Part shown: positions 7,482 through 59,598 of the stretch, in pieces
Layout of the letters: the number at the start of each line of letters is the position of its first letter
Position numbering within the stretch: position 1 is the first letter of the stretch
Assembly: GCA_000004985.1 (NCBI GenBank)
Contig: GG738909.1
Source of the DNA: Naegleria gruberi
Lineage: Eukaryota
Reading direction: 5' to 3' (one strand)
DNA: 64,000 nucleotides
Notes under the pieces: model-generated
What the model was told of the DNA's origin: nothing
Databases searched by the model: none
The model's input: the letters and a program-made list of their open reading frames with translations, nothing else
Made by a program: the position numbers and the translations under genes

Positions 7482-9043
7482 ATGAAGGTATTGAAAAGAT
7501 GGATCAAGATGATACCCTCCGAGTCTTCCAATCAATGTGAATGTTGTTGTACGTTTGATAGTAGCAAGGGAAATAGTAAGAGTGTTCTTCCGGTGATGGA
7601 AAGCACTTCCAGTGCATCTTGTTATCGAGTCTCCTTTGATGATATGTTGTGTGAAGATGTCATTGTTATAATTTGTTCCTTCTTGGGAGCAGAGGAGTTG
7701 TGGAATAATACTAGAAGGGTGAATACGAGTTTTAGAAATCAAACAATGAAGGATAGATTGTGGAAGGAACTGTATCATTTGAGGTGGGGCAATTTGAATG
7801 AATCTCTTGTTGTCAATTCATGTGTCTATCATCAGCAGATTGAGGCATCAATTCCTTGGTGGCAGATATACATGCAAAGGTTTGTACTGTTTTTCACTAT
7901 CTTGTTAACAAATTATCTTTTGATTTTTCACATAGACACAAATGGTTATCGTTCGAGTTTAATACATTGGAAAGAAAGTGTCCAACACTGAATGTGATGG
8001 AGGAACTGTTCTGCTCTGTGAATTGTCTGGAAAGTGGGATGGCATTCTATGAGAGATTACACTCACTTGGCAAAATCGCAAGCGAATGTGGTCTCCACTT
8101 GATTTCACAGCAACAAACAAAGAATACCAAGTCACAAGCTTCCACCAATCCACTGTATACAGTCCCTAAATCCAATGTTGAAGAATGCGTCATGTTTTGT
8201 AAACTATTCCTCAAGGCCTATTATGGAAAAGCAACAAGTTATGTTCAAGGTCCCAGCAGACTTTTCTCTGCCTTACTAAATTTGCAAGTGATCTTTTTAC
8301 TAGTCCAATCGTATTCTATAAGTGGAGAATACGACAAGACAATTGCCTACTCGACAGAGTGTTTGGATGGCATCCACACTATTAAGCAACAATACTCATC
8401 AGAATCGACAAGCTCTGATGAGCTTATGATGAGTAAGATTGAGGAAAAGTGCATCTTCTACAGAGGTTACTCATCCCACAAGTTGGGACTCTTCACTCAA
8501 GCAGAGAGGGATCTTGAGGTGGCAGAATCCGTGTACTCCGTTTCATCATGTGCACAAGAAGAGTACTGCTCCCCAATAAGAGAAGGTACCATTAACAATT
8601 CGAGAAAGTACTACCACCTCATGAATATTCAATTCACACTCATTAATAACCATATCAAACTGAAACAATTCCAACAATCTTTAGAGTATTTCATCAAATT
8701 GATTTCACTCATGAGAAGTGCCACAGATAGCCAGCAAATCATTGGAAAGTCTTCCATAACCATTGAATCAATGGATGAGAAATCATGGAACCTACTCAAT
8801 TTGTGGTTTCCTGGATTGCCATACTTTTTCCTTGCTGAATTTCTTTACAAACAACAGGACTACTTGTCCTCCAACATTCTCTTTGAGAAATATAGCAACT
8901 ATGAGCAAGGAAGAAAGCTTTCCGTGCATAAGCATCAAAAACAAACACCACCATCCAATCCTTCCAAAGATAAGCAATTGGTTCATGCCATGAGCAGAAT
9001 TAATCAAATAAATTCTGTCATCCAAAGTGATCAAGAATATTGA
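7482..9043 (+). CDS. F-box protein. Model is join(7482..7879,7936..9043).
   Basis: F-box motif VIVIICSFLGAEELWNNTRRVNTSFRNQTMKDRLWKELYHLRWG. A 56-nt intron (AG|GTTTGT...CATAG) joins track ORFs 7482..7991 and 7856..9043 in phase. Confidence 0.65.
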
Positions 9044-10754: not shown

Positions 10755-12988
10755 ATGAAACGAGTCTCTCGAATTGGGATTGAAGGAGAGCAGCAACAAG
10801 AACCTCAGCAACGTCGACAACAACAACCACAAACATCAACAACAGAATTAGCATCATCATGTCCGAACCTACATGTATTAGTACAGCACCAACACCAGCA
10901 CCATAATCCAGAGAAGTATCTTGCTGTTACTACATGTACTAATCTTCATACTAAAAGTCCTTCTTCTTCATCGTCATCAACATATGAACATGAGCATCAC
11001 ACACCAGTAACAAACATTGTCATGCAACAAGCAACAATATCGTTACCTTCTTCACCAGTTGTGAATAACGAATCATCTTTACCATCAACATGTTCAGCAA
11101 GGATAACATTACATCCCATCTCATGTAAACGTTGCAAAAGTAGACATACTAGATGTGATAGAGTCTTACCAGCATGTAGTTATTGTTTAAAGAACAATTT
11201 CGAATGCATGTATGAGACTCCAAAAAAGTTAAGGAAGAATTTCAATGCAGAGTTTGTCGATCTGAATGAGAAGACATCAAGTAGCATGCATGCATCAATC
11301 ACACATCCACAACAACCCAAGTCCAAGTATAAGGTCTATAAGTTCAAGTTGAATACCAAAACTAAAGCTGAAGATGAGGAACCAATGGAAGAATGTGAAA
11401 AATATTGTGTAATTGATGATAAACCAATGTCAGCAAGGAAATTAGTGGAAGAACATTCTCATGTGATGGTGATGGTGATGGTGATGGTGATTCCCATAGA
11501 GAAAATGCTACTTTTGAGTTTAGAAATGAAATCAGACTCTTTGCAAAGAACTTTCTTGAATCATCATTGGATTATTATTCGAAACATATTTCGTAAGTTG
11601 AAGTATTTGATTGGAAGAAGTAGTTACCAAGTTGTATATATGGAAGGTTTGGGAATGACATTATGACAAGGGCAGATGTGTTGACTTTGTTGGACTTGAC
11701 AAACTCGGAAAGTTTACAATTATTCCCAGATGATTTGTTAGCACTAATGTATGCCTCACAAGCATTGATTCTGTATTTTAAGGAAGAATGGCGAGAGGCA
11801 GAGGAATACTACAACAAGTGCATTCAAATATTGGAAGATGAAACCGAATCAAATAGGCTTCTTTGTCTTTCTACCACTTTTGAGAATAGGACAATGTTTT
11901 TCACATCGAATAGAATGGATTCTCAGTCTCTGTTCTTGATAGGAACTAGGTTAATATTGTGTCAGTACAAATTGTCGATGGGAGATTTGAAAGAAGCTGT
12001 AAAATTTGTTAGATTGGCAGATGTCATGCTGGATGAAAGGTTTCCTGTATTTAAGGAACAAAGTTTTTTACCAATCAATGCTAATGAAATACCTCAAAAT
12101 CTATTTGATGGAATATCAAAGGAGGAAATTCTAATTATCAAAAAGAGGATTCATTGTGGAATGCTTTTGGATGAATTGAAATTCACACTGGAAAACCTAA
12201 AAGAATACATACAACCTGAATCAATGGTTTCCTCTCCACTTTTCAATAATCAATCATTCATACTGAAAGAAAGTAGTACTTTCCAATTTTCTTCATTTGT
12301 GAATAGATTTGTCTTTGGAAATTCAATAGATATCAGAGGTAGATGTAAATATGAACTGCTGTGTTTGTTGCAGTCCCCTAATGTGATTTTTAGGAATCAG
12401 ACTAATGTACCCTTCTTAATAATAGGAATAGCTGAGAATAATGTGAAACATTTGGAAGAAGAAGCTTTGGAACAATTTGGAATTGGAAAAGTACAAGCTA
12501 TTTCACTGAATGAATCATCAAGTCTAGATTTAAACGAGTTTAATCAAGTAGTATTCGTGTTACAGAAAATATACTTGACTAGTTGCAGTCTGCTTGTTCT
12601 CCACGAAATAATAATCAACAGCTCCCAACAATTTACACAACAATGTGATAGTGAAATTGTTGAAAAGTGTAAAATATGGAGGAGTGCCTTTGCAGACGAG
12701 CTTAGTGATTATTATGCACTACTACCAACAGAAACAGTAAATATTTGCTTATTGGTTGTGGCTGTGTTCGTGGTGGCAAACATTCATGCTGACCTGATTC
12801 GAAGAGAGCTGCTCAACAAAACTCCTCCGCCCGCGTTACTTGTGCGTAGAATGAGGAATGATTTTAGATTGCTCTCACTTTTAAAGAGAAAGTTTTCCAA
12901 CTGGTTTGGAAGTTATCATAATAAGTTGTGCGAGAATATAGAAAACTTATTGAACGAAATTGCAATACTTAATAAAGAAAATTTATAA
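10755..12988 (+). CDS. Zn(II)2Cys6 binuclear-cluster transcription factor. Model is join(10755..11592,11676..12988).
   Basis: Zn2Cys6 motif CKRCKSRHTRCDRVLPACSYCLKNNFEC. An 83-nt GTAAGT...GCAG intron joins two track ORFs in phase. Includes a Gln-rich N-terminus and a (GTGATG)5 repeat coding VMVMVMVMV. Confidence 0.65.
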
Positions 12989-13043: not shown

Positions 13044-14729
13044 TTAGTATCTATGATGATCTGAATCTCTTCCTGGAGTGTTATGCTCTTGAATTGAGGC
13101 AACATTGAAAAAATCTTCATTTTTGTTTCCTTCCTGTTGACTGGTTGTCTTCAGGTAAATCTTTTTCAGTAATCTTTTGAATACACCACCAATTAAGGCA
13201 AGTAAAATACCCAACAGACCTATTCCACAAATAATAAAGAATATCAAAAAGAATTTAGAACCTGAATTTTTCAGTTTAAGATCGCCATATCCAATAGTTG
13301 TTAGTGTAATAAATACAAAGTAGAGACTATCACCAAACACCCAATCTTCAAATGCCATAAAGATGAGAGCTCCAACAATGGAATACGTTGCCACTAGGAA
13401 GAAGAAATATACAATTTGACTAAGAGGATGTTTCACAATTACAGAAACAACTCGTTCTATCCTACTAGTCTTTCTTTGAGTGGAATTGAAACTGCATGAC
13501 ATGCAGAGTTTGATGAAGAATACTATAATATTGGAAATTAAGGTGAGGAAGGATTTGGTGTTTTGCATTAACTTTTTAAATAATACTCCTGTCATGGCTC
13601 CCATCGTTGCCAATCCCAAAATACCAAATAAAACTACAAATAGTTTTCCTGCAACTGTTTGAGGAACAACATCTCCATATCCTACAGTAGTAACTATTTA
13701 GACGAAAGTTAAAAGAATTGTATGATTTGAAATTAACTTACACGTCACAGTACTAAAATACAAGCAATTAGTATAATACCAATGGTCAATATTGAATAAA
13801 TCATAGGTAATGTCTGTCTCATTAGAGGAAGTGGTAACGTTATTAATGGTAAAGTTACTGGTCATTTGATTCAGGGTTTGAGCTTCATAGGTTCCCTCAA
13901 TTAACCAAATTGGAACACTAGCAACAAGGAGGAAGATGAAAATTGATACTATCAACAATAAGGCATAGCAACAATTCTTGGAGAATTGCTTACAGGTAAT
14001 ATCTTCCACTTGGAAATATTCATCAGCTGTGTTATGTCGAGTTCTTTCACTACGTTTGTGATATCTGGATTGGTAATATTCATGATCTACTTTCTTTTCC
14101 TTCCTAAAGCTTTGATTGGACAAAGCCATATACTCATACCTAGCATTTAGACTTTCAAATAAAAAGTCTGAAACATGACACATTGCCATGCAGGTTTCTC
14201 TTTCATCCAATTCATTGTACTGTCCTGTTGTCTTTTTCCACATTAATGATTCAATATCTGAAACATCTGCCAACACTGTTTGAAAAACATCAAAATTCGA
14301 TATCGTTACTTGATAGTCCTTTTTGAAATAATCTTTAGACAGGTATTGTCTCGCCACTACACAATATCTTCCATCAGGGTATTTAGCTCTAGCCACTAAA
14401 AAGTCATCCTGTTCGTCCACATAATTTATTTTCATCCTCCTTGGTGAAATTAGCCTCCTATTGTTACTACTAGTTCCATCTGTATTATCGGTATACAATG
14501 AATTCTTATCAATTTTGACACTAGACAATTCATAATTTCCTGTCATCATTGATGGGTCTTCCGACAATCGTATAGGCACAGAAAGTTCTGGTAACTCTCT
14601 TCTCGATGATGATATTGATGGTGGTAAAAGTCCATCTTCACTATAACTTGAATTCATCACCTGAATATCTGGCACTTCATACGAATCTTTATCTAACAAA
14701 CTTTCCGTTAATTCTTTTCTTGATGACAT
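13044..14729 (-). CDS. Two-pore-domain (4TM/2P) potassium channel. Model is complement(join(13044..13693,13742..14729)).
   Basis: Two selectivity filters: TFTTVGYGD (spanning a 48-nt intron) and TLTTIGYGD. Each lies between hydrophobic helices. There is a long cytoplasmic N-terminus. Confidence 0.75.
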
Positions 14730-15985: not shown

Positions 15986-18900
15986 ATGACATCTCTCAAT
16001 GTTAATGTGTTTGACGATAGAGGTTCAAACAGTTCTCAAAGTAATTCGAGGGTGCTGCTCTCTCCACCTCAGGGAGCCAACAATTACTTACTAATTCCAA
16101 CCAGTAACTATGCAGGATCATCAGTATGTTCCTCTGACAGACATTCCAAAACTGACATTTCAGGTTCTGAAGTTAATGCGGTAACAAAACTGAAGAACTC
16201 GACTTTGGAGTTTGTACTCTTCATACAAGACAACCAAGTGAAGGAGGGAATCTATGGTTATGTGATAACCTTGTTGATTCACTTGTACATGTTTTGGATT
16301 GGAATTTTTCTACCAAATCTTGGACCAGAAATGATGTACGGAGATTGGGGAACATGGATTTTCTCAGTACTCAACTATGCTATTACTCTCTCATTTGAAA
16401 GGATCCCTTATAAGGGAGGTATTGTATTGGCTTTTATTGGAGTAGGTATTGTATTGGTATTTGTAATTCTATTGATCTGGACAATCTTTGCCTACAAGAC
16501 AACCTCCCAACATTTAAAGAACTCGAGAAGAGCTATTGCCATCTTTTCCAAAGTATTTCCATTCATATCAGTACCTCTCTTGTACTTGATGACATTCTCT
16601 CTTGATTGTAATTATACAGTAAGCTCATCAAATCTGAATAGATTTGAATTCTATTCCCATGAGGTGATCCAATGCCACGATACTAGCAATATTATATTTG
16701 TGGTGGTAATGATCTTGGCCATCCTGTTATTGATTATACTCAATGTATTCTCCATGCTCATTGTACCAAACTGCCATCCTCAAAATATAGCTCCATTTGT
16801 GACCGATAATCCAGTTTTCATGAGCTTGTTAGTTGCCTTCAATCTGTGGCAACTCTTTTTACACTTTATCATTCCAACACAATACTCTTTTATGAGAGCT
16901 ATTGTTCATAGTGTTGGATCTATTATTTTAATTATAATTTTTGCCAAGCTGATTCCATTCATTAGAAGAATTGAGAATAGTATTGTATTTGGTTGCCTGT
17001 TGGCTAGATTAGCTTCGAGTATTGGAGCTATTGTAACTTCTATTGTAAATAACCCATCCCTATCAAAGATACTGCCATCGGTGGATAATACACTTGGTGT
17101 TGGACTTGCAGGTCTAACTATTGGTTTGATTATTATTGGTTTTGTGCTTGGTTTCTCCCTTATGGAATTGTATACGAGATTTATTGTGAGATCTATTAGA
17201 AACTTTGTTCTGGAATGTATTCAATCAGATAATGATGAAACAAATCTAGATTCCAAAGAAACTGAAAAATACATTGAGAAAGAAGCACAAATTATTTATC
17301 AACAGTTGGTTGAGTCAAGAAAATTAAGGCACCTTAGAATATTCTTTAAATTTTCTATGAAATTCAAAGAAAAATATCCAACGGAAAAATCAGAAACGCC
17401 CACACAGCACAATCTACTCGATATTTATATTTGTATTGCTCTGATTAAGGGGTTCTCTTCCAATAACCAATTAGATAATGAGATTATCCTTCTCTCTAGT
17501 ATGATTATTGCAAATTATTTGCCAAACGAGGTCAATTCTACAACATTTGCTCAAGGACTTTTGAAGAAAGCTTTTAAAAGAAGACCATCCACTTACTATA
17601 ATTTATTAATTAGTCTAGCTCAAAAACAAGTAGAAGCAACGGTCTATCAAACCAATCCAGAGAGCAGAAACAATGTTGAAATGGCCAAGCTTATTGGTCA
17701 CTTAGAAAGAAGACAGGATGAATTACGAGCACTTCACAGAGCTTTCTGGAAGGAAATCATGCAAGAAAATATCAATCATGAAAAATGTGAATCTATTATT
17801 GTAAGGATTGGGATATTGTCTCATGAATGTGAAACTAAATTCAAGAATTTAATGCACATTTACAAAAACGACAAGACAGTTCTTCGATGTGTTGCTAAAT
17901 ATGTAGAATCTTTTAAATTCAATAAGGAAGCTGCTCAGGAATTATATTCTGAAGCAACAACAATTGAAGAAGAGGATTCCAAACGAATGAATGCCTCCTC
18001 TAAAAGAAGAATTAAAAAGAACCAAAAGAACAGAGTGCATCCTCAACAAATCAGTCACGCTTTTGAGACGTTATCTTATGGTGATGCTAATCATCATGAG
18101 GTAGAGTCCACTGTTGTAGGAGATTTGAATAACGATTTTGGTGGTGTTGAGAATAATCCAGAATTGAAGAAGGAGCTTCTGTTCAGGAATGCATTGGCCA
18201 TCTCACATAAGAATCATTCACATCTCACAATGTTTTTCATTTTCATTGTGCTATCCTTGCTAATTTTGGTTTCAACATTAGTAATGAGCTTGATGTTTTC
18301 GAATTATGTTACTGAGAGCGTACTTGTTGTGGATACTGCCTGTACACCGATTGCATCTGCTATTCGAATTGTTAGTGGAACAAGAAGTTATCAGAGCTCT
18401 CTATTGTTGTACAGTTCCAATTCATCAGCTTGGCCTTCATTATTGGCAGAATATGGCTACTCGAGCCTTTCTGAATTCAAGAAAGCTCACAAGAAAGAGC
18501 TAAGGGATAATATTGATTACTTAATTCTATTGAAAGAGCTAGCACAAACAGCCAAGTTTACCACTGATATGTACTCTGAATTTCATGAATACTACTATAG
18601 CTTTAATCAACCAAAGGCAAATACTAATGGTTTGGAAAAGATTTACAACTCTACCACAGCTATCAATATTACCATTGCAGATATTACTAATTTGGCTATA
18701 ACCTATTCAGAGCAGATTTACAAATTTGAAGATGAGGATTATCTACATACTTTCAGCAGTTATCCTTTCATGATACTATTCAACAATAGGAATATTATGA
18801 CAGCAGCTTATTCTTCATTCTGTTACAAATTTGTTGAGGAATCCAAGAGCTATACCAAGACGATTTCCAATACTTTTATTATTTACTACTCTTGCTCAAT

Positions 18901-21257
18901 TGTTGTTTATTTTACTTACACTGCTATTTATTTGTGCTTTGCAAGATTGGATTTGTCTTTTTTGAAAAAGCTTATTGTTTTATTGGAAAAGAATGTGTCA
19001 AAGCATGAAGCAGGAAAAATGTATCACAATTTGGGCAAGCTAGTCCAAGATGACAGCTCTGTAAGACCGGCCAAGAACTCTGCTTTATACCCTAGGAATG
19101 TTGTGGTAGGATTGGGAATTGTGACAGCAATCTGTGTTGCACTCTGTGCTGGTTTGTTCCTAGCTCAAACTCTCAGCAATTCTCAATACAGCTTTGAGTC
19201 CTATGTCACCATGAGGGATGCTTTCAATGCATTAGAAAACTCCCAATATATTGCAGAAGCGATAACTGAGGAATTCATTAATTTAAAAATTGCTGACAAA
19301 ACATTTATTAATGGATTGGTTTCATCTAATACTGAGCGTTCTGAATCTATTCAAGCATCAATTAAGAAATTAAGATTCTATTGGAATATGTGCATGTATG
19401 GGTCTAATTATTACCCAGATGAGACTCTTGTGATTGGTCTTTTCGAAAAGACTGATTTGATGATAAAGGGAGAAGCTAATTGTACATTTGAAAAGATGAT
19501 TTCACATAATTGCAGCATTGGTGTTGATAAATTGATCACAACTTACACGACTAAAGCCACACAACTCACAGAAGATATTGATCTCAAATCAACAACATTT
19601 GAATCATTATTTGATGACTATTTGGTAGTTAGTTTTTTCTCTACCTATGTAAGCAATTCATTACTGTCATTTTCAGATGTATTTGCTATGGCTGCCTCTG
19701 TTCCATCAGACAAGTTGGTGATTCCATTTGCCATTCTTGGATTTTTGACTTTGTTTATATTCTCGATTGGTATTTACATGTCAATGGGAAAGTATTTCAA
19801 TTCAGTCCAACAACTGCGTCTTCTTTTCAATTATCTACCTCTAGACTTGATGGACTCAAACGAAAATATTAAGAATTATATTGTACATCATCATCTTCCT
19901 GACTCATTCTCAAACATTTTTAGAAGAAAGAAAGGTTCTTCATCAGAGGGCGACTCAAAAGTTCGAAGCATTTTGAACGCATCTGTAGATGGAGCAGTGA
20001 TGTGCAGTGGAGAGAAGGTTGATATTGAAATATTCAATCCAGCAGCTCAAAAGATATTTGGATATAATCAAACAGAAACGATTGGCAGATCATTGTATCA
20101 ATTATTTGAAAAGAATGAGCAATCGAAAATTAAAAACCTCATTGATGAAATGTTAGTGAATGCAGCAAGAGGTGATTCGAAAGGAGATTCTATTGAATTG
20201 GAATGTATCAGAAAGAATCAAACAAGCTTCCCATCACGTGTCAATATTTTTGCCACTCTTCACAATTCTCAAAGTGTTGTCACTTGTTTCATTAAGGATA
20301 TTACAACAGAGAAGAAGCATAATTCATTATTGACAGAAGAAAAGAAACATTCTGAAGAATTATTATTGAATATTTTACCAAGTGCAGTGGCAAGTAAATT
20401 GAAATCAGGAGAAACTTATATTGCAGAGAAATTCAATGATGTTTCATGTTTTTTTAGTGACATGGTTGGATTTACAAAATTAAGTACTGGAATTCAAGCA
20501 TCTGAATTGGTTCAAATGTTGAATGAAATTGTAATTGGATTTGATGATTTGACAGACAAATATAATTTGGAAAAGATTAAAACGATTGGAGATTCATATT
20601 TTTGTGTGGGTGGATTACATGGATTAAATGCACAATCAGATCATCCTGAAAGAATTTTGAGATTTTCCATTGATACATTTGATGTTTTACAAAGATTTAA
20701 TTCAAAATCAGGAAAACAACCATCTGAACAAATTAATATTCGTGTTGGTATTAATACTGGAAGTGTTATTGCAGGTGTTATTGGGAGGAAGAAATTTGCC
20801 TATGTATGTTTTTAATTTCAACATTTTAACATTTTATTGTGTAAATTGTACATTTTCAATATTTCATATTAATATATTAATTAAATAGGATTTATGGGGA
20901 GATACAATTAATACAGCTTCAAGAATGGAATCTAATTCAATTCCAGGAAGAATTCAAATTTCCAGATCAACCTATGAAAGAGTTTATGATTTGGGTTTCA
21001 CTTTTGAAGAAAGACATTTAAATGTGAAAGGAAAGGGTGAATGTATTGCTTACATGTTGCATGAGAAACATCACACTCCAGCTCTTGTTCCATCCTTCAC
21101 TGACATGTTGAGAACAAGTTTAAACATTTTACAAAAGAAAAATTCTGCAAATCTTGAAACATTGAATGAACCCAAAACACCAACAAGAAACAATGATAAT
21201 ATTACCTTGACAATCAATCAAGAAGCCTACCTATCTCCAAATAATACTTTGGAGTAA
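15986..21257 (+). CDS. Polytopic PAS-domain class III adenylyl cyclase of about 1730 aa. Model is join(15986..20803,20889..21257).
   Basis: A 1609-codon exon encodes a multi-TM N-terminal block, further TM helices and a PAS-like segment. The cyclase core FFSDMVGFTKLS...KIKTIGDSYFCVGGL...GVIGRKKFAY|DLWGDTINTASRMES spans an 85-nt GTATGT...AG intron. Both metal Asp, the specificity Lys and Asp, and the transition-state Asn/Arg are present. Confidence 0.8.
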
Positions 21258-22579: not shown

Positions 22580-24305
22580 TTAATTTCCCACCAAAGAATA
22601 GTTCAATATTTTCAATTTTTTAGAAATATTAGAATTGACTATTTGGGAAATATCCAAATTAGAATGAATCACATTCAATTCAGTTAAAGTATTTCCAAGA
22701 TTGTCCACCAATTTGGATAGATCAGAAATATTCAAGTTTTTAACTCCATTCAGTGAAAGGCTTTGCAATTTTGGAGGAAATTTACAATCAGAAATCGCTG
22801 AAAGATTGCTGAAATTACAAAAATCCATTTTGAGAATTTTCAAATTTCTAAATTGTTGATTCTCAAAGAAATATTCAAAGTCCTCTTCTTTGAGAAGGTA
22901 ATTATTGCTCAAATCTAAATATTCCAAACTTTTAAATCTGTCATCCTTAACTAGATGTTGAAAAATATCGCTTGTCAAGAAACATGATTGTAAATCAATA
23001 AATTTCACATATTTGAAGGGAGTTTTCATAAACAGTTCAAGATTGGGTTTCTTGACCCTAATTCCGCCTTCATTCATAATTCCATTAAATTCACGGCAAA
23101 CTAATCTCATGTTCAGAATGTCATCCAAATCAAAGAATTCTGAAACAGAAAGAATTTCGTCTCGTTTCAAAGGTCTTGCTGTCCAGATAATTTCAATTTC
23201 TGGTTTGGAAAGAATTGCATCCATTAAATTGGTGAATCGAGTGGTTGGAATATTGACTTTCCAATTTGGATCAACTTTATCCAACCATTTGTCCACTTCT
23301 GAAGGTGTTGGAATGAAATTCAGATCGATCATATCAAATGCTGGTCTTCCAACAACTTCATTAAACATTCCAACTAGAGATTCTCTATGGAAACAACAAT
23401 CAACAACAAAGTGCTTGGCAATTTTAGATTCTCGATCCAAATTAAGAAACTTTTCAATGATAAAGTCTTTCACCTCATTTGGATCTGAATCATTTCCCTT
23501 AAAATCCTTAAAGAATGATGAAAGCTTGTATCCTCTCCTAATCTTTTCTCTCAACACTTCAAATTTTGTGAAAATTACATAAAGTCTCTTGATTTCCTTT
23601 CTTTCCAAAACACTCTGAAAAAGTCTATACGAATCGTCAAATCTATTCAAATCCGAAAGTTCATAACACAATTCATTGCACTGAGATAGAGAAATTACAA
23701 AGCAATGTTTACATTCTGAGCTCGTAATTAAATCTTCCCATCTACTTCTCTCACATCTCTGTCCGCCAGTATCGAAACATGTAACTCCACAAACAGTTCT
23801 TTCAACTATTCCAACAGTTTTCATATAGATTCTAGCATAATCCTTTGGTATTAATCTCTGTTTCATATACCTTTCTAATACATTTCTTTGATTGAAATAC
23901 GAAACTGTTTCACTAATTTCTGAAATACAATTTCCTTCAATTTCCTTTTCATGAATACATTTCTGAAATCCAGAATCGTGATACATTAAATAGAAATATT
24001 CATGTATTTCATCATCCAATTTCTTATTAGGTATTCTATTCTTTACCAGTGCAGAATCTTGAACTTTATCAAATGCTTGTCCAAATTTAGTAAAATCATT
24101 CCTGGATGGATTTATATCGGATAGGAATAGTTTAAAACACCAGGGAAGATGATTATATTTTGTGGTGTTGCAACGGGAAATTGTAGGGTTGTTCAATCCA
24201 AGCAAGGTATTAAACAATGTTGCTAAAATATAGAATATTCGAATCCTTTAGAATATTGTAATTTAATTTCTTACTTTTTCCTGATCCACCACTTCCCAAG
24301 AAAAC
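22580..24305 (-). CDS. G-protein alpha-like GTPase domain fused to a C-terminal F-box plus leucine-rich repeats. Model is complement(join(22580..24222,24275..24305)), with the 5' end uncertain.
   Basis: G-alpha motifs: P-loop FLGSGGSGKT (on the upstream exon across a 52-nt intron), switch I ARIYMKTVGIVERTV, and switch II/G3 CFDTGGQRCERSRW. The C-terminal helix region resembles G-alpha. The same ORF continues through an F-box-like EILSVSEFFDLDDILNMRLVCREFNGI into LRRs. A one-codon ATG first exon at 24349-24351 is possible. Confidence 0.55.
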
Positions 24306-24550: not shown

Positions 24551-26872
24551 TTATTCAATTGTAGTCTTCATGGTGCTTTCCATAAATTTCAAGTAGATTT
24601 GAGTTGTAATCTCAGTCAATTCATCAAATATATCTTCAAAAGTTGGTCTCTCTTTTGGATCAATGTGTGTACATTTCATTCCCAATAAATGAATCTTTTG
24701 AGCTTGTTCTTGAGTGAGGAAATTGAACCTCTCCACCAATTGAACTACTGAAATAAAACTTCCAAAAACATCTGCCATATTGGCAGGTCTATATCCAGAA
24801 ATGAGTGTGTGCATTGTGACTCCAAAACTGAAAATATCCAAAGCTCTAAACACAAACACTGTGTCTTGTTGCTTATTTCTCAATTCTGGTGCCATGTAAT
24901 ATAATGTGCCAGCAGTGGTGCAGGAATAGGTTTCAGGTTTGTCCACTGTGAGAGAAACATCAAAATCTGACAATTTGACATTATCAATAATCTCAACTCC
25001 ATCAATTCTCATCTTTTTCACCAAAATATTATTTGGTTTAATGTCATAATGAATCACATTCTTGGAATGTAAATATTTCATTGTATCTGAAACCTTGACA
25101 AGGGAGAATAATATTTGAACAAGTTCAATAATTGTTGGTTCAGTTATTGAAAATGAAGATAATGAATCATCCATCTTTTCCATGAATAAATGTTCGATTC
25201 CATCTTGATTATAGTGATGTAACAATTTTACAACACCATCATGTTCACAAATTCCATTCATAATTTCAATCTCACTCGTTCCAATATTATTAGAAATTTT
25301 CTCTGCAACAGGAACATTATTCATCAACACTGAATATACAGCTCCATTTGCCCCATTTCCAAGATATGTTCTATTGGCTCTGTTAATGACAGCCCCTTCA
25401 ATGACTGTGGCTCTATTTAAAGTGATAGTTGAAAGAGTTTCTCTTTTCTTCAATCTGCAAGATAAAATATATGACATATTATATGAAAAATATTCTCCAA
25501 GAGACTTGAACTCATCCAATTTCCTATTCAGCATTAAATCAGCTTGTGGAGCCAACATATATTTGAGAATGCTATTATTTGTGATGATTTCTGATTGATT
25601 GTCCACAAGTTTTGGCAAAGTGTAAATGTTAATGAAATATCTGAATGGCTCAATCTCCCCTTCTGACAATAATTCAACCAATGATTCTGCTTCAACACCT
25701 GAACTGAGTAATATTCTGACATCATGGTGATTTCTCTAATTGTAGATGCGAGTTTTTATAAGTATTGGAAATTTTTACAAATAACAAACCTTAATTAGGT
25801 GATGAGCAATTAATAATCTCATAATTTTTGTAAAATTATTAGTTTTGGCAATTTCAAATGGTGTTTCTCCCTTTCTTGGTGTGAATATTGATTTTTTAGC
25901 AAACAAACTTACACACTAATAACCATAAATGGTATTCCAAATAATTTACACTCAAAAACTTACTGACTATTCAAAAAGTTAGTTGGTTATCTTTAATAAA
26001 TACATACACACTGTGAAATGGTTGAGAAATGATCGATTACGAAATCAACTTACATTCTTTTAATTGTTAATGCTTCATTGTGGAAATGAAATTAAACTTA
26101 CATGCTTTAAAATAATTAATTTGAAAAGTAATTGAAATACTTACACACTATAAAAACGTCAGTAAACTCCAATAGATCACTATCAACTTACACACTAATC
26201 AAATTATTCCTCTGCAAAACAACTAATAAGCATACTTACTCCCTAAAATCTCTTATTCGAAACTGTATATGCTAAACTTTACTTACTCCCTAAAACCATT
26301 CAAAATCTCAAATCTACAAATCTACTTACTCCATTCTTATAATCAACCAATGGCATACTCTTCAGTAAATATTTCACAACTTTAACTTGTCCATATTTGC
26401 AAGCAATGTACAACAAAGTTCTCGCTGGAGGATAGTTCTTATTCTTCTCTGGAATTAAAACATCAAGAAGTGATGGTAAATCTTTCATTCGACTCAATTC
26501 TTTCACATTTCCTTGTTTCACCCAATAGGCAGCCAATAATGCATTGTACATTTGTGGAAACAATCGAATAGTTGTTAGTGCTGGACTCCATTGGGATGGC
26601 TGCACCAATAGTTGGAAAATAGGATGAGATGGTTGTCGGAAAGGATAATTGGAAGGAAAAGAAAAAGTGAAAACAAATGGCTCCTCCTTTCAAATTCCAA
26701 TAATTCATTCATCATTGATCAATAAATTGATAAATCTATTCGAAATAAACTCACATCAACAATTTTAAAAGTTACTGTCCATTCCGAAAGTTCATTGTCA
26801 TTCTTAGGTTCGACAGTAAAGCCAGGATGTGTCAGTTGTTTAATATCTCGCAATTCTCTCTGTACTCTCTTC
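24551..26872 (-). CDS. UBC-like (non-catalytic) N-terminal domain, ankyrin repeats and a Ser/Thr protein kinase, about 582 aa. Model is complement(join(24551..25735,25790..25870,26330..26686,26750..26872)).
   Basis: Kinase motifs: LGNGANGAVY, VAEK, HYDIKPNNILV, DFD and YMAPE. Upstream exons encode MLKRVQRELRDI...SEWTVTFKIVD and ...QWSPALTT (an E2-like fold lacking the catalytic Cys) plus ankyrin-like repeats. Introns of 54, 459 and 63 nt have consistent phase. Single-gene linkage is inferred. Confidence 0.5.
25871..26329 (-). repeat. Intronic array of about 9-10 tandem units of roughly 45-50 bp. Each unit begins with a consensus 5' splice site (GTAAGT, read on the minus strand) and ends in AG.
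   Basis: On the plus strand, ACTTAC recurs every 45-50 nt (25908, 25958, 26049, 26098, 26140, 26187, 26234, 26282, 26324). The units are separated by 3-4 nt spacers (GGAG, TGT, TCA, CAT, AAT). Confidence 0.5.
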
Positions 26873-43219: not shown

Positions 43220-44704
43220 TCACTCAATAAAACCATAATTTTTCTTTTTCAGTTGCTTTTTCATACGTTTCAGATACTTGTTTCCATTGTCTATTCCATT
43301 ATCATATACATTTAAATGTTTTAATTTCTTCATTTTGGATAGGTATTTCACTCCTGAATCTTCAATAAAATTCTCAGAAATATCCAGACGTGTTAAGTGT
43401 TTCAATTTAGATAAGGATTTAGCACCTTCAGTTTCAATACTATTTCTATGAACATCAAGTTCAGTCAATTTTTCCAGCTTGCTTATAGATTCAGCTCCTT
43501 CATTTCCAATTGAAATTTCAGAAATCCAAAGTTTAATCAATTGATTCAATCCACTTATTAGTTTTGCCCCCTCATCTCCTAAATTATTAGCTGATATATC
43601 TAAAAAAGTTAAATTTGTCATTTCACTAATTGATTTGGTGCCATCTATTCCTATTAAAGTTGAGTGCATATAAAGTGTTTTCAATTGTTTCATTTCACTT
43701 ATTACCTTTGCACCAGCGTCACCAATCCAGTTGTCACCAATATTCAGACTGATCAGTTGTTTCAAAGAGGTTATTGATTGGACTCCATCAACTGAAACAA
43801 TTTGTATTGCATGAGCTGACAAATTAGTTAATTGTTTCAATTCACATATAAACTTAATTCCTTCCTCATCAATTCCATTTAATCCAACACTCAGATCAGT
43901 CAAATTTTTCATTTGACTAATACATTTGCATCCTTCTGTCCTTATTTCGTTATGATCTATGTCAAGTTTTGTTAGTTGACTTAGTTCTATCAAAGATTTT
44001 ACACCACTATCATCAATACCATTTTCACTTATTTCAAGGCTTGTCAATTGTTTCATTCCAATCATTGATTCAATACCCAAGTTTGTGATCTTACACTTAC
44101 TAATATTTAGAATAGTCAGTTTTTCAAGTTTTGATAAATATTCAACAGCCTTATAACCAATATCATTATAGCCAATACTCAATTCCGTAAGATTAATCAA
44201 ATTACCAATTGATTGAGTTGCTTCCGAACTAATCACATTACTTATCAGATCAAGTTTCTTCAATTGGTCCATCTTACTAATAATTTTAGCACCATCATCA
44301 TCAATTAAATAGGAATCAAATACCAGAGTTTGCAAATTCTTAAACTTCCCAAATACCTTTAAACTTTCATTACATATTTTCGATTCCTCCGTAAAGTGCA
44401 CTCCACAAATACATTCCAAAAATTGGCTCCTTTCCATTAATTTAATTCTTTCCTCATCAATGGGCTGTTTAAATTTCAAATAAATTTCCGAACGTTCCTT
44501 GATTACTCTCATCCATTGTCTTGATATACGAGTGTAATTTTTCAAAACAAACCAATTTGAATATTTACCTCCTATAAGAAAGGAAATAATTTCAAAACAA
44601 ATGTCATCGGGAAATTCTTTAATTTCATGCTGATGACTGATTATTACTTGGTTATTCTCTTCTGTGAAGTTGGGATCAATTCCTGTTTCTCGTAATCGTT
44701 TCAT
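43220..44704 (-). CDS. Leucine-rich-repeat protein (RNI/RanGAP-like LRRs), about 495 aa
   Basis: Many 28-aa LRRs (LxxLxxLxLxxNxIgdeGak). The start is inferred at the internal Met (MKRLRETG). The longer track ORF to 44911 runs antisense through tRNA-Gln and is not credible as coding. Confidence 0.55.
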   Translation of the reverse strand: MKRLRETGIDPNFTEENNQVIISHQHEIKEFPDDICFEIISFLIGGKYSNWFVLKNYTRISRQWMRVIKERSEIYLKFKQPIDEERIKLMERSQFLECICGVHFTEESKICNESLKVFGKFKNLQTLVFDSYLIDDDGAKIISKMDQLKKLDLISNVISSEATQSIGNLINLTELSIGYNDIGYKAVEYLSKLEKLTILNISKCKITNLGIESMIGMKQLTSLEISENGIDDSGVKSLIELSQLTKLDIDHNEIRTEGCKCISQMKNLTDLSVGLNGIDEEGIKFICELKQLTNLSAHAIQIVSVDGVQSITSLKQLISLNIGDNWIGDAGAKVISEMKQLKTLYMHSTLIGIDGTKSISEMTNLTFLDISANNLGDEGAKLISGLNQLIKLWISEISIGNEGAESISKLEKLTELDVHRNSIETEGAKSLSKLKHLTRLDISENFIEDSGVKYLSKMKKLKHLNVYDNGIDNGNKYLKRMKKQLKKKNYGFIE

Positions 44705-44810
44705 TTTTTTTATTGTAAAAACAAATCGACTCTTTCGCAATAGCAGCGAGCCAAAACCAAGCCTAACCTTAATTGATGTAAGATTTACTGCCTTTTTACA
44801 ATAATGTGCT

Positions 44811-44881
44811 CGTCTCGTGGTGTAATGGTAGCATAGTGGACTTTGAATCCATTGACGGAGGTTCGATTCCTCCCGAGACGG
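44811..44881 (+). tRNA. tRNA-Gln (anticodon TTG)
   Basis: Acceptor CGTCTCG/CGAGACG, anticodon loop CTTTGAA, T-arm GGAGGTTCGATTCCTCC. Confidence 0.8.
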
Positions 44882-45237
44882 TAAACGTGGCGAGCCATAC
44901 GAATTTTGCATGTGGACGATAACTATTTTTTTACTTTCCTGGTATAGCCATTTCTTGAAATACCATTAGAATCGAAAATATTAATTGGGTTTTTTGAAAT
45001 TGTTCAGATATTTATGTAATGTACAAAAGGAATTCAAAGAAGAGGAATATTAACTTTCTATTGGAATTCTAGTGATATTTTTGAGACTTTGCATATTTCT
45101 ATTGGGAATACTATTTTGGACGCTTTTCAGTTTAACAATATCTTTAGAAATTCGTTCCTATTGCGATAAAGGAATATTCTTTATATTCATTGTATTAAGG
45201 GAAAATTGTTCATATTTCACATTGTAAGTAACTGAAT

Positions 45238-50035: not shown

Positions 50036-51709
50036 CTACTTTTTCTTGTAGTTTTGCATCAACTTTGTCTGTATTTTGTTACAACCATCCTTTTCACACT
50101 TTTCACATTCACAAACAAAAATATAGGGAAGAATAGACTCTGCTCTCTTCTGGGCACTCAGTGAAGGATTCACATAGGAAATAAACAATTGTTCACCTTT
50201 CTTAATCTTTCTCAAAGCTACCAAAGAGCATTTTCCATTTTCGTATCTATATTCCACATTTGGAACACAACTGTGATTCGTGTATACAATTGTTTTTGGA
50301 AGTGTTGAACTAAGAGCAACACCATTAGACATTGCATCACCATATTTAAAACTGTTATTTCCAATCTTATCCAATGATACATGATAGCTCAGTTTTCCAA
50401 TTAAATCATTTAAAATATTTGGCCAAGCAATTAAGCATTTAAAACTTGAATTATTTTCTTCTAATTTTTCAATAAACTGAACATATCTAATCTCTTGTTG
50501 TTTTAATTCACCTTGTGGATAAACTATCTGCAATAACATCCCCAAAAACTTGATAGCATACAAATGATTCTTTGCTGAATTAGTGCTGCCACTGACAATC
50601 ATCTTGTTTATATTCCTCATATCAAAGCCACACAATTTTCTATGATATTTATCCCATGCTTCACTTCTACATTCCATTGAACAATAATATTCCATTCCAC
50701 AATTGTTTTTGCATGGTATTTTCTTTTTAAGCTTATTCAAGCAATTATTGCAAGTATTTTCAGTGTCCAATGTAACACATAGAAATGGTTTCTCAGAAAG
50801 AACTACTTGCCCAGATTTCAATTCACTCGATGCATACATGCCTCTGCCATATTGTTCAGTAGTTATAACATGTGCATGGAGGGGTGAGCACTCTTTCAAT
50901 AGACCTTGTACAACTTGGTCGTCTGTTTCAGTTCGATTGCCAAGAATGTTTTCTAATTTTCTTTTGAAAGTTGGAATTGGAAATTTAAAATCAAGAGGTT
51001 GAGATGGTGTTTGATCATTTTGATTTGTTTTAATTTCATTGAGTATCCAATCTTTCTTTTCGTTCAATTGTTTTGTTTTTTCATTCTCAATCGATTGGAT
51101 TTGATAATTTTGAATTTGAACATTGATGTTTTGAAGAGCAAGTGTATAATTTTTCATTGCTATAAAGGCATTAATCATTCCATCAACTGCATCATCACCT
51201 TGTTCCAAACTTTGTGGGAATTCCAGCTTTTCCAAAACAAAAAACGAATCCAAAAGTGCCATTGCTGGATATCCTAAAGCAATTAATATTTTGGCTCTAC
51301 AATTTAAGGCCATCTTTAAATGTTCATAGACATAATGTGGACCAATCGAATCATTAGTATTGGAAGAATCACTTGGACTATCTGTTGATTGTAATTCTCT
51401 GTATAGAAATTTACTATATTTAACAATTCTTCGTTGAAAGAATGTTTGTTGTTGATTGACCCTCTTGAGAGTTAAATCGGTTGTTTCTTCCTCTTCTTTG
51501 ATCATGGTTTTCATGGCTTTGGATTGAGCTTGTTCTACGAGTATTTGGATTGCCTTTTCAATTTCCTCATAGGCTTCAGGAAAAGATCCACTTTCAAATA
51601 GAGTATTCCCTTTAGTGAAGAAGGTCATGTAATTATTTTCTTCATCTTGTTGTTGTTGATTGGAAGGTTCAGTTGGAGGCAGATTTGTTATTGTTTCCAT
51701 TCCTTCCAT
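50036..51709 (-). CDS. SET and MYND domain (SMYD-like) protein-lysine methyltransferase with N-terminal TPR-like region
   Basis: MYND zinc finger CNNCLNKLKKKIPCKNNCGMEYYCSMECRSEAWDKYHRKLC. SET motifs NHSCVPNVEY and ELFISY. Single exon. Confidence 0.8.
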   Translation of the reverse strand: MEGMETITNLPPTEPSNQQQQDEENNYMTFFTKGNTLFESGSFPEAYEEIEKAIQILVEQAQSKAMKTMIKEEEETTDLTLKRVNQQQTFFQRRIVKYSKFLYRELQSTDSPSDSSNTNDSIGPHYVYEHLKMALNCRAKILIALGYPAMALLDSFFVLEKLEFPQSLEQGDDAVDGMINAFIAMKNYTLALQNINVQIQNYQIQSIENEKTKQLNEKKDWILNEIKTNQNDQTPSQPLDFKFPIPTFKRKLENILGNRTETDDQVVQGLLKECSPLHAHVITTEQYGRGMYASSELKSGQVVLSEKPFLCVTLDTENTCNNCLNKLKKKIPCKNNCGMEYYCSMECRSEAWDKYHRKLCGFDMRNINKMIVSGSTNSAKNHLYAIKFLGMLLQIVYPQGELKQQEIRYVQFIEKLEENNSSFKCLIAWPNILNDLIGKLSYHVSLDKIGNNSFKYGDAMSNGVALSSTLPKTIVYTNHSCVPNVEYRYENGKCSLVALRKIKKGEQLFISYVNPSLSAQKRAESILPYIFVCECEKCEKDGCNKIQTKLMQNYKKK

Positions 51710-57800: not shown

Positions 57801-59598
57801 AAATCTTTGCATTCCTTTTCCAAGGAATGTTGCTTTTCTAATGTCTGCTCGAGTAAGGTTTGTTTTTCAGCCATTATGTTGTTAGTATTTTGTAATTGTG
57901 ATTCGAAAGAGGCCTTTTCATCCTGTAAGTGGTGTACTTCTTTTTGAAGTTTACGCTCCAAATCCGCTCTCTTTTTCTTTTCAACCTCGATACTATCTAA
58001 AAGCTCTTCCATTTGGCTAGCATGTTTAATGGTTAGATCTTCAATGATTTTTTGATATTCCTCTTCTGAAGATTTAAGAACCTCTTCAGATTTAACCATA
58101 TCATTCTTCTCCTTTTCGTGTTGATCACGTAAGTTTTCTAAATCTTGTTTTAATTGTTTCTCTCTTTCTGTTGTTACATTCAAACTGGTTTGAAGGGTTT
58201 CCATTTGATGCATCTTTTCATTTAATTGTGATTTAAACTCAGTAACAATCTTATTTCTTTCCTCAATCAAATGTGATGATATTTTTCCAATTTCTGTGGA
58301 AGTGAACGATCCTAAGGTAGATCCAGTCTTTTGAATTTGTTCCAAATATTCCGTTCTGATGTCTACTTGATTTTTCTTCAAGTCTTTGAATTCCTTGGAT
58401 ACTTTTAACAGCTTTGATTTAACAGATTCATTATTGGATTTAAGCTTGAAAATTATTGTTTCATAGGCTTGTTTCAACTTCTCAATCTCTTGTGTGTCAA
58501 TTTGGGGTTGCTGGACTGGAGGAACCTCTGATGGTTTTGATGGTTGTGGTGTGACAGTTGCTGGTTGTTGTGGTTGTTGAACTAGTTGGGCGGTTGTTTG
58601 TGATTTTGGTTGAGGAATCTTTTTCAAAATACAAGACGAAGTTTGTTCCATTGTTTTCTTGGCTGCTTCTGCTGCCGAAACATGTGGAGAACAGTTGGCA
58701 AGTATGATTGCTCTAAAGTCATCAGTTAATAATTGAGAAAATACTGTCGAGAATAAGGTATTGGCATCATTTCTGATTCCCTTTAAATAATCTGATAATG
58801 GAACCATTTCTTCCAATCCAACATCTACAAAAGACAAGTTTGAAGTGATAACTCCTTCTAATCTGAAAGTATAAATTAGTGTTCCTGGAGAGGCATCTTG
58901 TTGGTCTTCTTTCAAAACAATTTTCATTGCTTCATTCAGGTCCTTCATATTACGAATAACACTATTATCTGATATTGTGTTCATATCCCAAATCCTTATT
59001 AAAACTTACTCTTTGATAATTCCACCAAACCATTTTGTTTTACTTTAATGACTAAAAGTCTCAAAGTTGTTCCTAGCATCACTTGGTCAATAATATGTTT
59101 GAAACACCTGTAGAGGAGAGCATCATTTGGTCCAATTTCTTCCGAATCCCAATTTCTCGTTCCAATAATTGAGAATGATTTTCCACTGTATTTTGCACCA
59201 CAACTCACAACTACATTGCTGCATCCGGATAGAATATCTATATTGTTCGATAACATTAAGTGTTAAGGTAACTTAGTACTTACCTGCAACAATTGAAGAT
59301 CCAATGGCATCAAATATTTGTTCTGGAGTTGTACTCATTGGGAAAACCTTATCAAAATCAAACTTTACAGGTTTATCCACTCCGTACTTTACATTTGATT
59401 AACAATTAGCCTTAATTTCCAACTCACCTTCAAGAGAACATTCTTCAAAGACTTGTGGAAGGCTACACTACATTGGGCCTTTTTATCAGTTTCATCACTC
59501 ATTTCAAACTTAATAAAAGGCCTAAATCTACAATATTTGACCAAGTCAGCCCTTGGTTCGTCGACTGCAGAAGTAACCTCACTTTCAGTAACAGACAT
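54842..59598 (-). CDS. Kinesin-like protein with a divergent motor domain and a roughly 1300-aa coiled-coil tail, about 1542 aa. Model is complement(join(54842..58968,59010..59237,59284..59386,59428..59598)).
   Basis: Motor landmarks: KYCRFRPF, FDFDKVF, and P-loop GAKYSGKS. The switch I-like DASPGTLIYTF and switch II-like SNLSFVDVGLEE are both degenerate. Three short GT-AG introns (41, 46 and 41 nt) have verified phases. The rest is continuous heptad repeats. Confidence 0.7.

What the first reader, a model, noticed from the sequence alone, without database searches (positions are those of the whole stretch)
15986..21257. Unusual polytopic PAS-adenylyl cyclase with a single catalytic domain
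The N-terminal half has a block of about 8 TM helices. Up to four more TM segments are dispersed through the middle, separated by large loops. A PAS-like module follows, then one class III cyclase domain. The catalytic residues read as adenylyl cyclase, not guanylyl cyclase: a Lys precedes TIGD in KIKTIGD, and an Asp sits in Y|DLWGD. Both metal-binding Asp, the Asn and the Arg are intact. A single catalytic domain implies it works as a homodimer. This architecture matches none of the classic 12-TM or single-TM cyclase layouts I know. It could be a new receptor-type AC.
Basis: partly seen in the sequence, partly recalled or inferred. Interest (0 to 1): 0.75.

Follow-up and report, generated by a model that had tools for sequence, protein, structure and literature searches.

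The report
Naegleria 12-TM PAS adenylyl cyclase
This is a real two-exon gene of the amoeba Naegleria gruberi for a 1728-residue membrane adenylyl cyclase, one member of a large, untested gene family found across Naegleria and its relatives, so it is unusual next to textbook cyclases but not unique.

Summary
Window 15986-20803 plus 20889-21257 (+), joined across an 85-nt phase-0 GT..AG intron, encodes 1728 aa. The order of parts is: cytosolic tail, 8-TM block, cytosolic TPR_TmcB helical repeats, two TM-helical bundle-TM modules (12 TM in all), PAS, cyclase-transducer helix, one class IIIa catalytic domain. All catalytic residues are present: D1492, D1536, K1532, D1607, N1614 and R1618. K1532/D1607 is the adenylyl cyclase pair.

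The window is Naegleria gruberi. The deposited model at this locus (1609 aa) reads through the intron and loses the last catalytic residues.

The gene is not a one-off. An exhaustive search found 129 relatives, about 30 of them full length with the same layout, in N. gruberi, N. fowleri, N. lovaniensis, Acrasis and Pharyngomonas. All are annotated as hypothetical. Genome papers already report 80-100 or more cyclases with varied TM/PAS topologies in Naegleria.

The 8-TM block folds confidently (pTM 0.87) but matches no solved structure. The only named link for the N-terminal half is Dictyostelium TmcB, a genetic regulator of cAMP signalling.

Best reading: a homodimeric receptor-type adenylyl cyclase with an unknown ligand. 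It is a new variant of a known kind, of moderate interest.

In passing: a paralog shares an almost identical output cassette but has a very different sensor half.

The parts
15986..20803 (+). Exon 1 (codons 1-1606), from the ATG to the GT donor
20804..20888 (+). Intron, 85 nt, GTATGT...TAG, phase 0, between Y1606 and D1607. If retained, the frame stops at 20815 and the enzyme lacks D1607, N1614 and R1618.
   Evidence: The spliced junction is present in P0012. L002 has an intron at the same site. Paralog models are truncated here.
20889..21257 (+). Exon 2 (codons 1607-1728 plus the TAA stop)
15986..16261 (+). N-terminal Ser/Asn-rich tail (aa 1-92), predicted cytosolic
16262..17161 (+). 8-TM membrane block (aa 93-392). 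The TM3-TM4 outer loop has a conserved Cys pair (C208, C230) and an N-glycosylation sequon.
17252..18019 (+). Cytosolic helical-repeat region (aa 423-678). It contains the Pfam TPR_TmcB match at aa 564-666 (nt 17675-17983).
   Evidence: 55.6 bits against a cutoff of 27
18005..18166 (+). Charged linker (aa 674-727), predicted disordered
   Evidence: pLDDT 30-45
18230..18940 (+). Sensor module 1: TM9 (aa 749-767), a mainly helical outer bundle with a beta hairpin (aa 768-966; conserved C786 and C946, and N894 sequon), then TM10 (aa 967-985)
18941..19102 (+). Short basic cytosolic loop (aa 986-1039)
19103..19771 (+). Sensor module 2: TM11 (aa 1040-1058), an all-helical outer bundle (aa 1059-1243; conserved C1166), then TM12 (aa 1244-1262). 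There is weak profile similarity to module 1.
   Evidence: hhalign probability 83%, E 9e-6
19814..19840 (+). Juxtamembrane motif LRLLFNYLP (aa 1277-1285), conserved across the family. It lies next to the breakpoint of the mosaic paralog.
19961..20305 (+). PAS domain (aa 1326-1440). It is closest to the FixL PAS but has Ile where FixL has its haem-ligating His.
20339..20422 (+). Helix before the catalytic domain, the cyclase-transducer element (aa 1452-1479, ...EELLLNILPSAVASKLKSGE...)
   Evidence: It aligns with the pre-C2 helix of AC8 and AC9. CTE concept: PMC9552081.
20423..21062 (+). Class IIIa cyclase catalytic domain (aa 1480-1664), interrupted by the intron. Catalytic residues: D1492, K1532, D1536, R1586, D1607, N1614, R1618.
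21063..21254 (+). C-terminal tail (aa 1665-1728), low complexity

Best explanation
This is a two-exon Naegleria gruberi gene for a 1728-aa integral-membrane class IIIa adenylyl cyclase. It belongs to a multigene family found across Heterolobosea.

Shown:
- The domain order is an 8-TM block, cytosolic TmcB-type TPR repeats, two tandem TM / outer helical bundle / TM modules, a conserved juxtamembrane motif, PAS, a cyclase-transducer helix, and one complete catalytic domain.
- The catalytic domain has the Lys/Asp (ATP) specificity pair.

Inferred:
- Two chains pair through their catalytic domains and form two symmetric active sites, as in mycobacterial Rv1625c.
- The outer helical bundles, and possibly the 8-TM block, sense a signal. 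The signal passes through TM12, the juxtamembrane motif, PAS and the transducer helix, and changes how the catalytic dimer packs and so how much cAMP is made.
- PAS acts either as a relay or as a second, cytosolic input. It cannot hold haem in the FixL manner.
- The ligand is unknown.
For: - Gene structure and intron.
- Organism and deposited model. P0001 is 100% identical and is named an N. gruberi predicted protein.
- Domains.
- Catalytic domain class: the closest solved structures are the C2/C1 domains of AC8, AC9 and AC5 and the mycobacterial Cya/Rv1625c enzymes, with E values from 1e-66 to 1e-45. The alignment runs through the pre-catalytic helix.
- Catalytic residues are conserved in nearly all members with a complete catalytic domain.
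- Topology: 12 hydrophobic segments are conserved across the family. Conserved Cys residues and glycosylation sequons sit in the loops predicted to face outward. Short inner loops are more basic.
- Family: 129 relatives, 64 of them below 1e-30. Of 31 long members, 29 have TPR_TmcB, 29 have PAS and 26 have the cyclase domain. Species are N. gruberi, N. fowleri, N. lovaniensis, Acrasis kona and Pharyngomonas kirbyi.
- Selection: a paralog's output region is 94.8% identical in DNA but 98-100% identical in protein, which indicates purifying selection.
Against: - No enzyme activity, dimer state, topology or expression was measured.
- The inter-domain packing in the large model is uncertain (pTM 0.52).
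- No ligand-binding residues were identified in the PAS domain or the outer bundles.
- The link to TmcB is tested only for the TPR segment.
Confidence: 0.8

Rival explanations
1. The 8-TM block is a transporter or channel and the protein is bifunctional, like the P4-ATPase-guanylyl cyclases of alveolates or the Paramecium channel-cyclase. cAMP synthesis would then be coupled to flux of a substrate or ion rather than to binding of a ligand on the outside.
For: The block is a compact, confidently predicted polytopic domain (pTM 0.87) and is conserved in the family. The full-length search also returned P-type ATPase-cyclase fusions through the cyclase domain (P0003, P0004), so such fusions exist in protists.
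Confidence: 0.1
2. The membrane half is mainly an anchor and scaffold. The TPR repeats recruit partners, and regulation comes from inside the cell through PAS or bound proteins (for example G proteins), not from an outside ligand.
For: TPR repeats are protein-binding modules. PAS domains often sense cytosolic cues, and the nearest solved PAS is the FixL sensor. Dictyostelium TmcB is described only genetically, as a regulator of cAMP signalling (PMC8516963, PMC12750705). A G-alpha gene lies 1.3 kb downstream.
Against: About 385 residues of outer loops carry family-conserved Cys residues and a glycosylation sequon and adopt sensor-like helical bundles. That is costly for a mere anchor. The sensor half differs greatly between paralogs that share an almost identical output. 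This pattern is expected if the sensor half sets input specificity. The G-alpha adjacency is a single observation.
Confidence: 0.2
3. It is a guanylyl cyclase or a dual-specificity cyclase. Several relatives are named 'Guanylate cyclase domain-containing protein' or 'guanylate cyclase 2F'.
For: Automatic names in the databases. The Pfam family covers both enzyme types.
Against: The two specificity positions are Lys (K1532, where guanylyl cyclases have Glu) and Asp (D1607, where guanylyl cyclases have Cys). They are conserved in most family members with a complete catalytic domain. The best solved matches are adenylyl cyclases.
Confidence: 0.05
4. It is an annotation or assembly artefact: two neighbouring genes fused by chance, or a decaying pseudogene.
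For: The deposited model is truncated (1609 aa). Many relatives are split or truncated in the databases.
Against: There is a 4818-nt uninterrupted frame and a canonical in-phase intron. The same contiguous layout is seen in about 30 long relatives from five species. All catalytic residues are intact. The split models coincide with introns.
Confidence: 0.02

Closest known systems
Heterolobosean TPR_TmcB-PAS-cyclase paralogs and orthologs, e.g. N. fowleri FDP41_001627 (P0259, 1714 aa), N. gruberi NAEGRDRAFT_72081 (P0267, 1736 aa), Acrasis kona 'adenylate cyclase' KAL0483827 (P0253), Pharyngomonas kirbyi P0229
   Same: The same full-length layout, the same pattern of 12 hydrophobic segments, the conserved juxtamembrane motif, PAS, the transducer helix and, in most members, the same catalytic residues.
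   Different: The sensor half is only 22-47% identical. All are annotated as hypothetical and I found no report that any has been tested.
Mycobacterial Rv1625c / M. intracellulare Cya (6-TM, single catalytic domain, class IIIa, homodimeric)
   Same: A single catalytic domain with both metal-binding Asp, the Lys/Asp adenine pair, and Asn/Arg. A transducer helix lies before the domain. Activity requires a homodimer (PMC9552081, PMC4821796).
   Different: Rv1625c has a six-helix anchor joined directly to the transducer helix. This protein has 12 TM, a cytosolic TPR region, two large outer bundles and a PAS domain in between.
Cyanobacterial PAS-cyclases and receiver-cyclases (e.g. Coleofasciculaceae, Microcoleus, Tychonema; P0021, P0043)
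   Same: These are the closest non-Naegleria relatives of the PAS-catalytic cassette, with 37-54% identity over 48-80% of the query.
   Different: They are soluble or have other sensor modules (receiver, GAF, MASE1, CHASE). None of those listed has TPR_TmcB or this membrane half.
Dictyostelium TmcB/TmcC ('tiny macrocysts' proteins; Pfam PF25474)
   Same: The cytosolic TPR segment matches the TmcB profile above its curated cutoff. TmcB is reported as a regulator of the cAMP pathway (Muramoto 2005, as cited in PMC8516963 and PMC12750705).
   Different: I know of no cyclase domain in TmcB (from memory, not checked). I could not obtain the Dictyostelium sequence to test whether it shares the 8-TM block and the outer bundles.
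Mammalian and Dictyostelium 12-TM adenylyl cyclases (AC1-9, ACA)
   Same: Class IIIa catalytic chemistry, about 12 TM in total and a transducer helix.
   Different: Those enzymes have a 6TM-C1-6TM-C2 pseudo-heterodimer in one chain. This protein has 8+4 TM and one catalytic domain at the C-terminus, so two chains are needed.

Membership tests
Class III nucleotidyl cyclase (Pfam PF00211), subclass IIIa | The catalytic-domain profile match exceeds the curated cutoff | tested here: met
   182.5 bits against a cutoff of 21.9, aa 1480-1664
Class III nucleotidyl cyclase (Pfam PF00211), subclass IIIa | Two metal-binding Asp plus the transition-state Asn and Arg | tested here: met
   D1492, D1536, N1614 and R1618 align with the AC8/AC9 catalytic residues and are conserved in the family
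Class III nucleotidyl cyclase (Pfam PF00211), subclass IIIa | Adenine-specifying Lys/Asp pair (guanylyl cyclases have Glu/Cys) | tested here: met
   K1532 in KTIGD and D1607 in YDLWGD
Class III nucleotidyl cyclase (Pfam PF00211), subclass IIIa | A cyclase-transducer helix directly before the catalytic domain | tested here: met
   aa 1452-1479 align with the pre-C2 helix of AC8 and AC9. Definition from PMC9552081.
Class III nucleotidyl cyclase (Pfam PF00211), subclass IIIa | Makes cAMP and is active as a dimer | not testable with these tools
   Needs an enzyme assay and measurement of oligomeric state
PAS domain | Profile match exceeds the cutoff | tested here: met
   PAS_9 55.2 bits (cutoff 27) and PAS 33.6 bits (cutoff 22.6)
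Haem-binding FixL/DosP-type PAS | Proximal His on the F-alpha helix (FixL His200) | tested here: not met
   In the alignment with BjFixL the '...RSRHDSY...' His aligns with Ile. The family consensus has Ile at this position.
TmcB/TmcC family (Pfam PF25474 TPR_TmcB) | TPR_TmcB profile match exceeds the cutoff | tested here: met
   55.6 bits against a cutoff of 27, aa 564-666, profile positions 22-124 of 125
TmcB/TmcC family (Pfam PF25474 TPR_TmcB) | Membrane regions homologous to those of Dictyostelium TmcB | not tested
   No Dictyostelium sequence could be retrieved. The afdb50 library was unavailable and the word-index profile search was unproductive.
Classical eukaryotic tmAC (6TM-C1-6TM-C2) | Two catalytic domains separated by a second six-helix domain | tested here: not met
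   One catalytic domain. TM pattern is 8+4 with no catalytic domain between the blocks.
Kinetoplastid receptor AC / Dictyostelium ACG type | A single TM between one large extracellular domain and the catalytic domain | tested here: not met
   12 TM segments
Rv1625c-type 6-TM homodimeric AC | A six-helix anchor joined directly to the transducer helix and catalytic domain | tested here: not met
   12 TM, with about 180 residues including a PAS domain between TM12 and the transducer helix
Alveolate P4-ATPase-guanylyl cyclase | N-terminal P-type ATPase domain and two catalytic domains | tested here: not met
   No P-type ATPase family in the Pfam scan. The hits P0003 and P0004 match the cyclase domain only.

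The most novel reading that the evidence does not exclude
The TmcB-type membrane module (8-TM block plus TPR repeats, with the paired outer bundles) is a previously unrecognised receptor domain that controls a class III cyclase directly. The covalent fusion in Heterolobosea would then work as a Rosetta stone: it would predict that free-standing Dictyostelium TmcB, known only genetically as a regulator of cAMP signalling, acts by binding and regulating an adenylyl cyclase in trans. Paralogs that keep one output cassette and swap sensor halves would point to modular evolution of input specificity.
Probability: 0.25. Interest if true: 0.6.

Novelty: new variant of a known kind. Interest (0 to 1): 0.4.

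Why it matters
Naegleria species carry 80-100 or more cyclase genes. These include the brain-eating N. fowleri, where 62 of 80 cyclase genes are reported as expressed in trophozoites (PMC9283941). I found no report that any of them has been tested.

This gene gives a clean, corrected model of one major architectural class, with a complete catalytic site, a defined 12-TM topology and domain boundaries suitable for expression constructs.

The 8-TM block is a confidently folded membrane domain with no solved relative. Its only named relative, Dictyostelium TmcB, is a genetic regulator of cAMP signalling, so the fusion offers a testable mechanistic hint for TmcB.

In practice, the truncated deposited model shows that some cyclase models in these genomes are cut off at, or just after, a conserved intron. 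Four of the models examined end there: P0001, P0141, P0143 and P0151. Some models could therefore wrongly look catalytically dead.

None of this overturns current understanding. It extends the known principle that a membrane sensor drives a class III cyclase.

Tried and rejected
- **Full-length word-index search.** It returned only 11 hits and missed the paralogs. The exhaustive search was needed.
- **Word-index profile search with the N-terminal alignment.** It returned only the protein itself. The search was wasted.
- **Foldseek against AFDB50.** The library was unavailable, so I could not compare the fold with Dictyostelium TmcB.
- **Foldseek of the 1200-aa model against the PDB.** Nothing was significant. 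The best E was 0.095, to TPR subunits of APC/C.
- **PDB sequence search with aa 1-1279.** No hit.
- **Look-up of the contig for P0012.** Not on record, so the N. gruberi copy of the mosaic paralog could not be read as DNA.
- **Papers not held.** Fritz-Laylin 2010 and Muramoto 2005. Their content is cited second-hand.
- **Readings rejected.** LOV-type flavin PAS: no Cys at the position of the LOV motif, by my reading of the sequence. FixL-type haem PAS: the His is absent. Tandem paralogs in the window: none. Cyanobacterial origin of the PAS-cyclase cassette: suggested by the hit list, but not tested by phylogeny and not claimed.


Full report
**Observation.** The window has about 33% GC. The protein matches a GenBank 'predicted protein [Naegleria gruberi]' at 100% identity (P0001), so the source is that amoeboflagellate. 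ORF 15986..20815 (+) is 1609 aa. At 20804 the sequence reads GTATGT and at 20886-20888 it reads TAG. Removing these 85 nt joins ...KKFAY to DLWGDTINTASRMES... in frame. The result is a 1728-aa product that ends at TAA 21255-21257. By my estimate a 1606-codon open frame in DNA of this composition has a chance probability near 1e-53.

**Support for the intron.** There are three lines of support.
- A second N. gruberi model, P0012 (390 aa, on a 14-kb scaffold), contains the spliced junction.
- Contig L002 has an intron at the same codon boundary.
- Several paralog models in the databases end at '...KKFAYD' or just after it.

The deposited model for this locus reads into the intron and lacks D1607, N1614 and R1618. 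As annotated it would look catalytically dead.

**Anatomy.**
- *Membrane spans.* Hydropathy averaged over 27 family members gives 12 conserved hydrophobic segments. Eight lie at 93-392 and the others at 749-767, 967-985, 1040-1058 and 1244-1262.
- *Topology.* The cyclase must be cytosolic. It follows that the N-terminus, the TPR region and loop 986-1039 are cytosolic, and that loops 768-966 and 1059-1243 face outward. This fits the conserved Cys residues (C208 and C230 in the TM3-4 loop; C786, C946, C1166) and the conserved N894 sequon in the outward loops. It also fits the more basic short inner loops.
- *Large model.* An AF2 model of aa 80-1279 has pLDDT 76 and pTM 0.52. It shows a well-packed 8-TM block, cytosolic helical repeats, a disordered charged linker at 674-727, and two outer bundles formed by long extensions of TM9/TM10 and TM11/TM12 plus extra helices. 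The first bundle also carries a beta hairpin.
- *8-TM block alone.* It models at pLDDT 89.8 and pTM 0.87.
- *Internal repeat.* Profile comparison of the two TM-bundle-TM modules gives probability 83% and E 9e-6 over 168 columns. This suggests an internal duplication but does not prove it.

**Catalytic domain.** The closest solved sequences are mammalian AC8, AC9 and AC5 (both halves) and the mycobacterial Cya/Rv1625c enzymes. The domain is therefore class IIIa. The alignments place the residues as follows:
- D1492 and D1536 at the metal-binding positions;
- K1532 and D1607 at the adenine-specifying positions, where guanylyl cyclases have Glu and Cys;
- N1614 and R1618 at the transition-state positions.

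The helix ...EELLLNILPSAVASKL... aligns with the pre-C2 helix, the cyclase-transducer element of PMC9552081. These residues are conserved in nearly all family members with a complete domain. One chain holds a single, complete domain, so activity should need a homodimer with two symmetric sites, as established for Rv1625c (PMC9552081). This step is inferred.

**PAS domain.** The nearest solved PAS is the haem-binding FixL domain (E 4e-7). The FixL proximal His aligns with Ile here and in the family consensus, so FixL-type haem binding is excluded. What the PAS domain senses, if anything, is unknown.

**Membrane half compared with known structures.**
- No PDB sequence matches aa 1-1279.
- Foldseek finds nothing significant.

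**Family.** An exhaustive phmmer search with aa 80-1279 against 1.84 billion cluster representatives found 129 proteins. Of these, 93 were below 1e-10 and 64 below 1e-30. About 30 are 1400-1800 aa long and align over the whole query.

Of 31 long members, 29 carry TPR_TmcB, 29 carry PAS_9 and 26 carry Guanylate_cyc. Their consensus keeps the whole layout. Named members come from N. gruberi, N. fowleri, N. lovaniensis, Acrasis kona and Pharyngomonas kirbyi, so the family spans Heterolobosea. Many shorter hits are split or partial models of the same genes.

One distant relative, P0005 (1550 aa), comes from an unidentified intron-poor eukaryote. It has the same plan but a degenerate catalytic site.

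All named members are annotated 'hypothetical', 'uncharacterized' or by domain name only.

**Literature.**
- Naegleria is reported to have at least 81 cyclases (PMC9928731).
- I found no paper that describes this particular architecture or tests any member.
- TmcB is the Dictyostelium 'tiny macrocysts' gene. It is described as acting in the cAMP signalling pathway of sexual development (Muramoto 2005, cited in PMC8516963 and PMC12750705). The primary paper was not available.

**Mechanism.** The best-supported reading is a homodimeric receptor-type adenylyl cyclase.
- Shown: the domain order, the complete ATP-type catalytic site, and conservation of both.
- Inferred: the dimer; outward-facing bundles that act as sensors; signal passage through TM12, the conserved LRxxxNYxP motif, PAS and the transducer helix to the catalytic dimer.

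Three rivals remain.
- The 8-TM block could be a transporter or channel. Nothing supports this.
- The membrane half could be mainly an anchor or scaffold, with regulation from inside the cell. This is possible, but the large conserved outer loops argue against it.
- The protein could be a guanylyl cyclase. The Lys/Asp pair contradicts this.

An artefact or pseudogene is excluded by conservation.

**Mosaic paralog (noticed in passing).** Metagenome contig L002 carries a gene whose DNA is 94.8% identical to window 19798-21083, including the intron. Its first ~1270 residues are only 25-58% identical in protein. Identity jumps to 98-100% from about aa 1290, just after TM12 and next to the conserved juxtamembrane motif.

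P0012 in N. gruberi itself carries the same output cassette with one amino-acid difference. Two paralogs therefore share one PAS-transducer-catalytic cassette joined to very different sensor halves. This points to gene conversion or recombination at the domain boundary. It also fits the view that the sensor half sets input specificity. Another paralog, L003, shows ordinary divergence throughout.

**Verdict.** The layout is non-classical and untested, but it is one member of a large family already in the databases, in organisms known for cyclase expansions. The design principle, a membrane sensor coupled through PAS to a class III cyclase, is familiar from bacteria. I rate it a new variant of a known kind, with interest 0.4.

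Noticed in passing
window 19798-21083 compared with L002 4823-6104; also P0012: A paralog shares an almost identical PAS-transducer-cyclase cassette (94.8% DNA identity, 98-100% protein identity, same intron site). Its N-terminal ~1270 residues are only 25-58% identical. The breakpoint lies just after TM12, at the conserved LRxxxNYxP motif. This suggests gene conversion or cassette exchange between cyclase paralogs.
   Followed up: partly
window 20804-20888 and the deposited model P0001: The GenBank model for this locus (1609 aa) reads through the intron and loses three catalytic residues. Three paralog models (P0141, P0143, P0151) end at or just after the same spot, so some Naegleria cyclase models are truncated at a conserved intron.
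   Followed up: partly
window 22580-24217 (-): A 545-aa ORF with a G-protein alpha subunit domain (Pfam G-alpha, E 1e-34). It is convergent with the cyclase gene and about 1.3 kb downstream of it. The match covers only part of the profile, so an upstream exon is likely.
   Followed up: no
window 24551-25681 (-), 43220-44911 (-), 50036-51709 (-): Neighbouring ORFs encode a protein kinase, a leucine-rich-repeat protein and a SET + zf-MYND protein. Together with the G-alpha and cyclase genes, this is a stretch rich in signalling genes.
   Followed up: no
window 54842-58984 (-): A 1380-aa ORF with no Pfam match at E<=1e-5. Four other ORFs of 343-441 aa also had no match: 347-1642, 7856-9043, 11663-12988 and 13698-14729.
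   Followed up: no
L001 3001-7653 (P0005, Logan SRR29449381): A 1550-aa protein from an unidentified intron-poor eukaryote (contig GC 44%). It has the same TmcB-TPR and multi-TM plan, but key catalytic positions of its cyclase domain are replaced (KTIGD is VMCER, WGD is VGP, ASRM is AKLM). It may be a pseudo-cyclase. It suggests the fusion may extend beyond Heterolobosea.
   Followed up: partly
aa 1265-1728 (window 19778-21254): Outside Naegleria, the closest relatives of the PAS-cyclase cassette in the hit list are cyanobacterial PAS-cyclases and receiver-cyclases (37-54% identity). This raises the question of a bacterial origin. No phylogeny was done.
   Followed up: no
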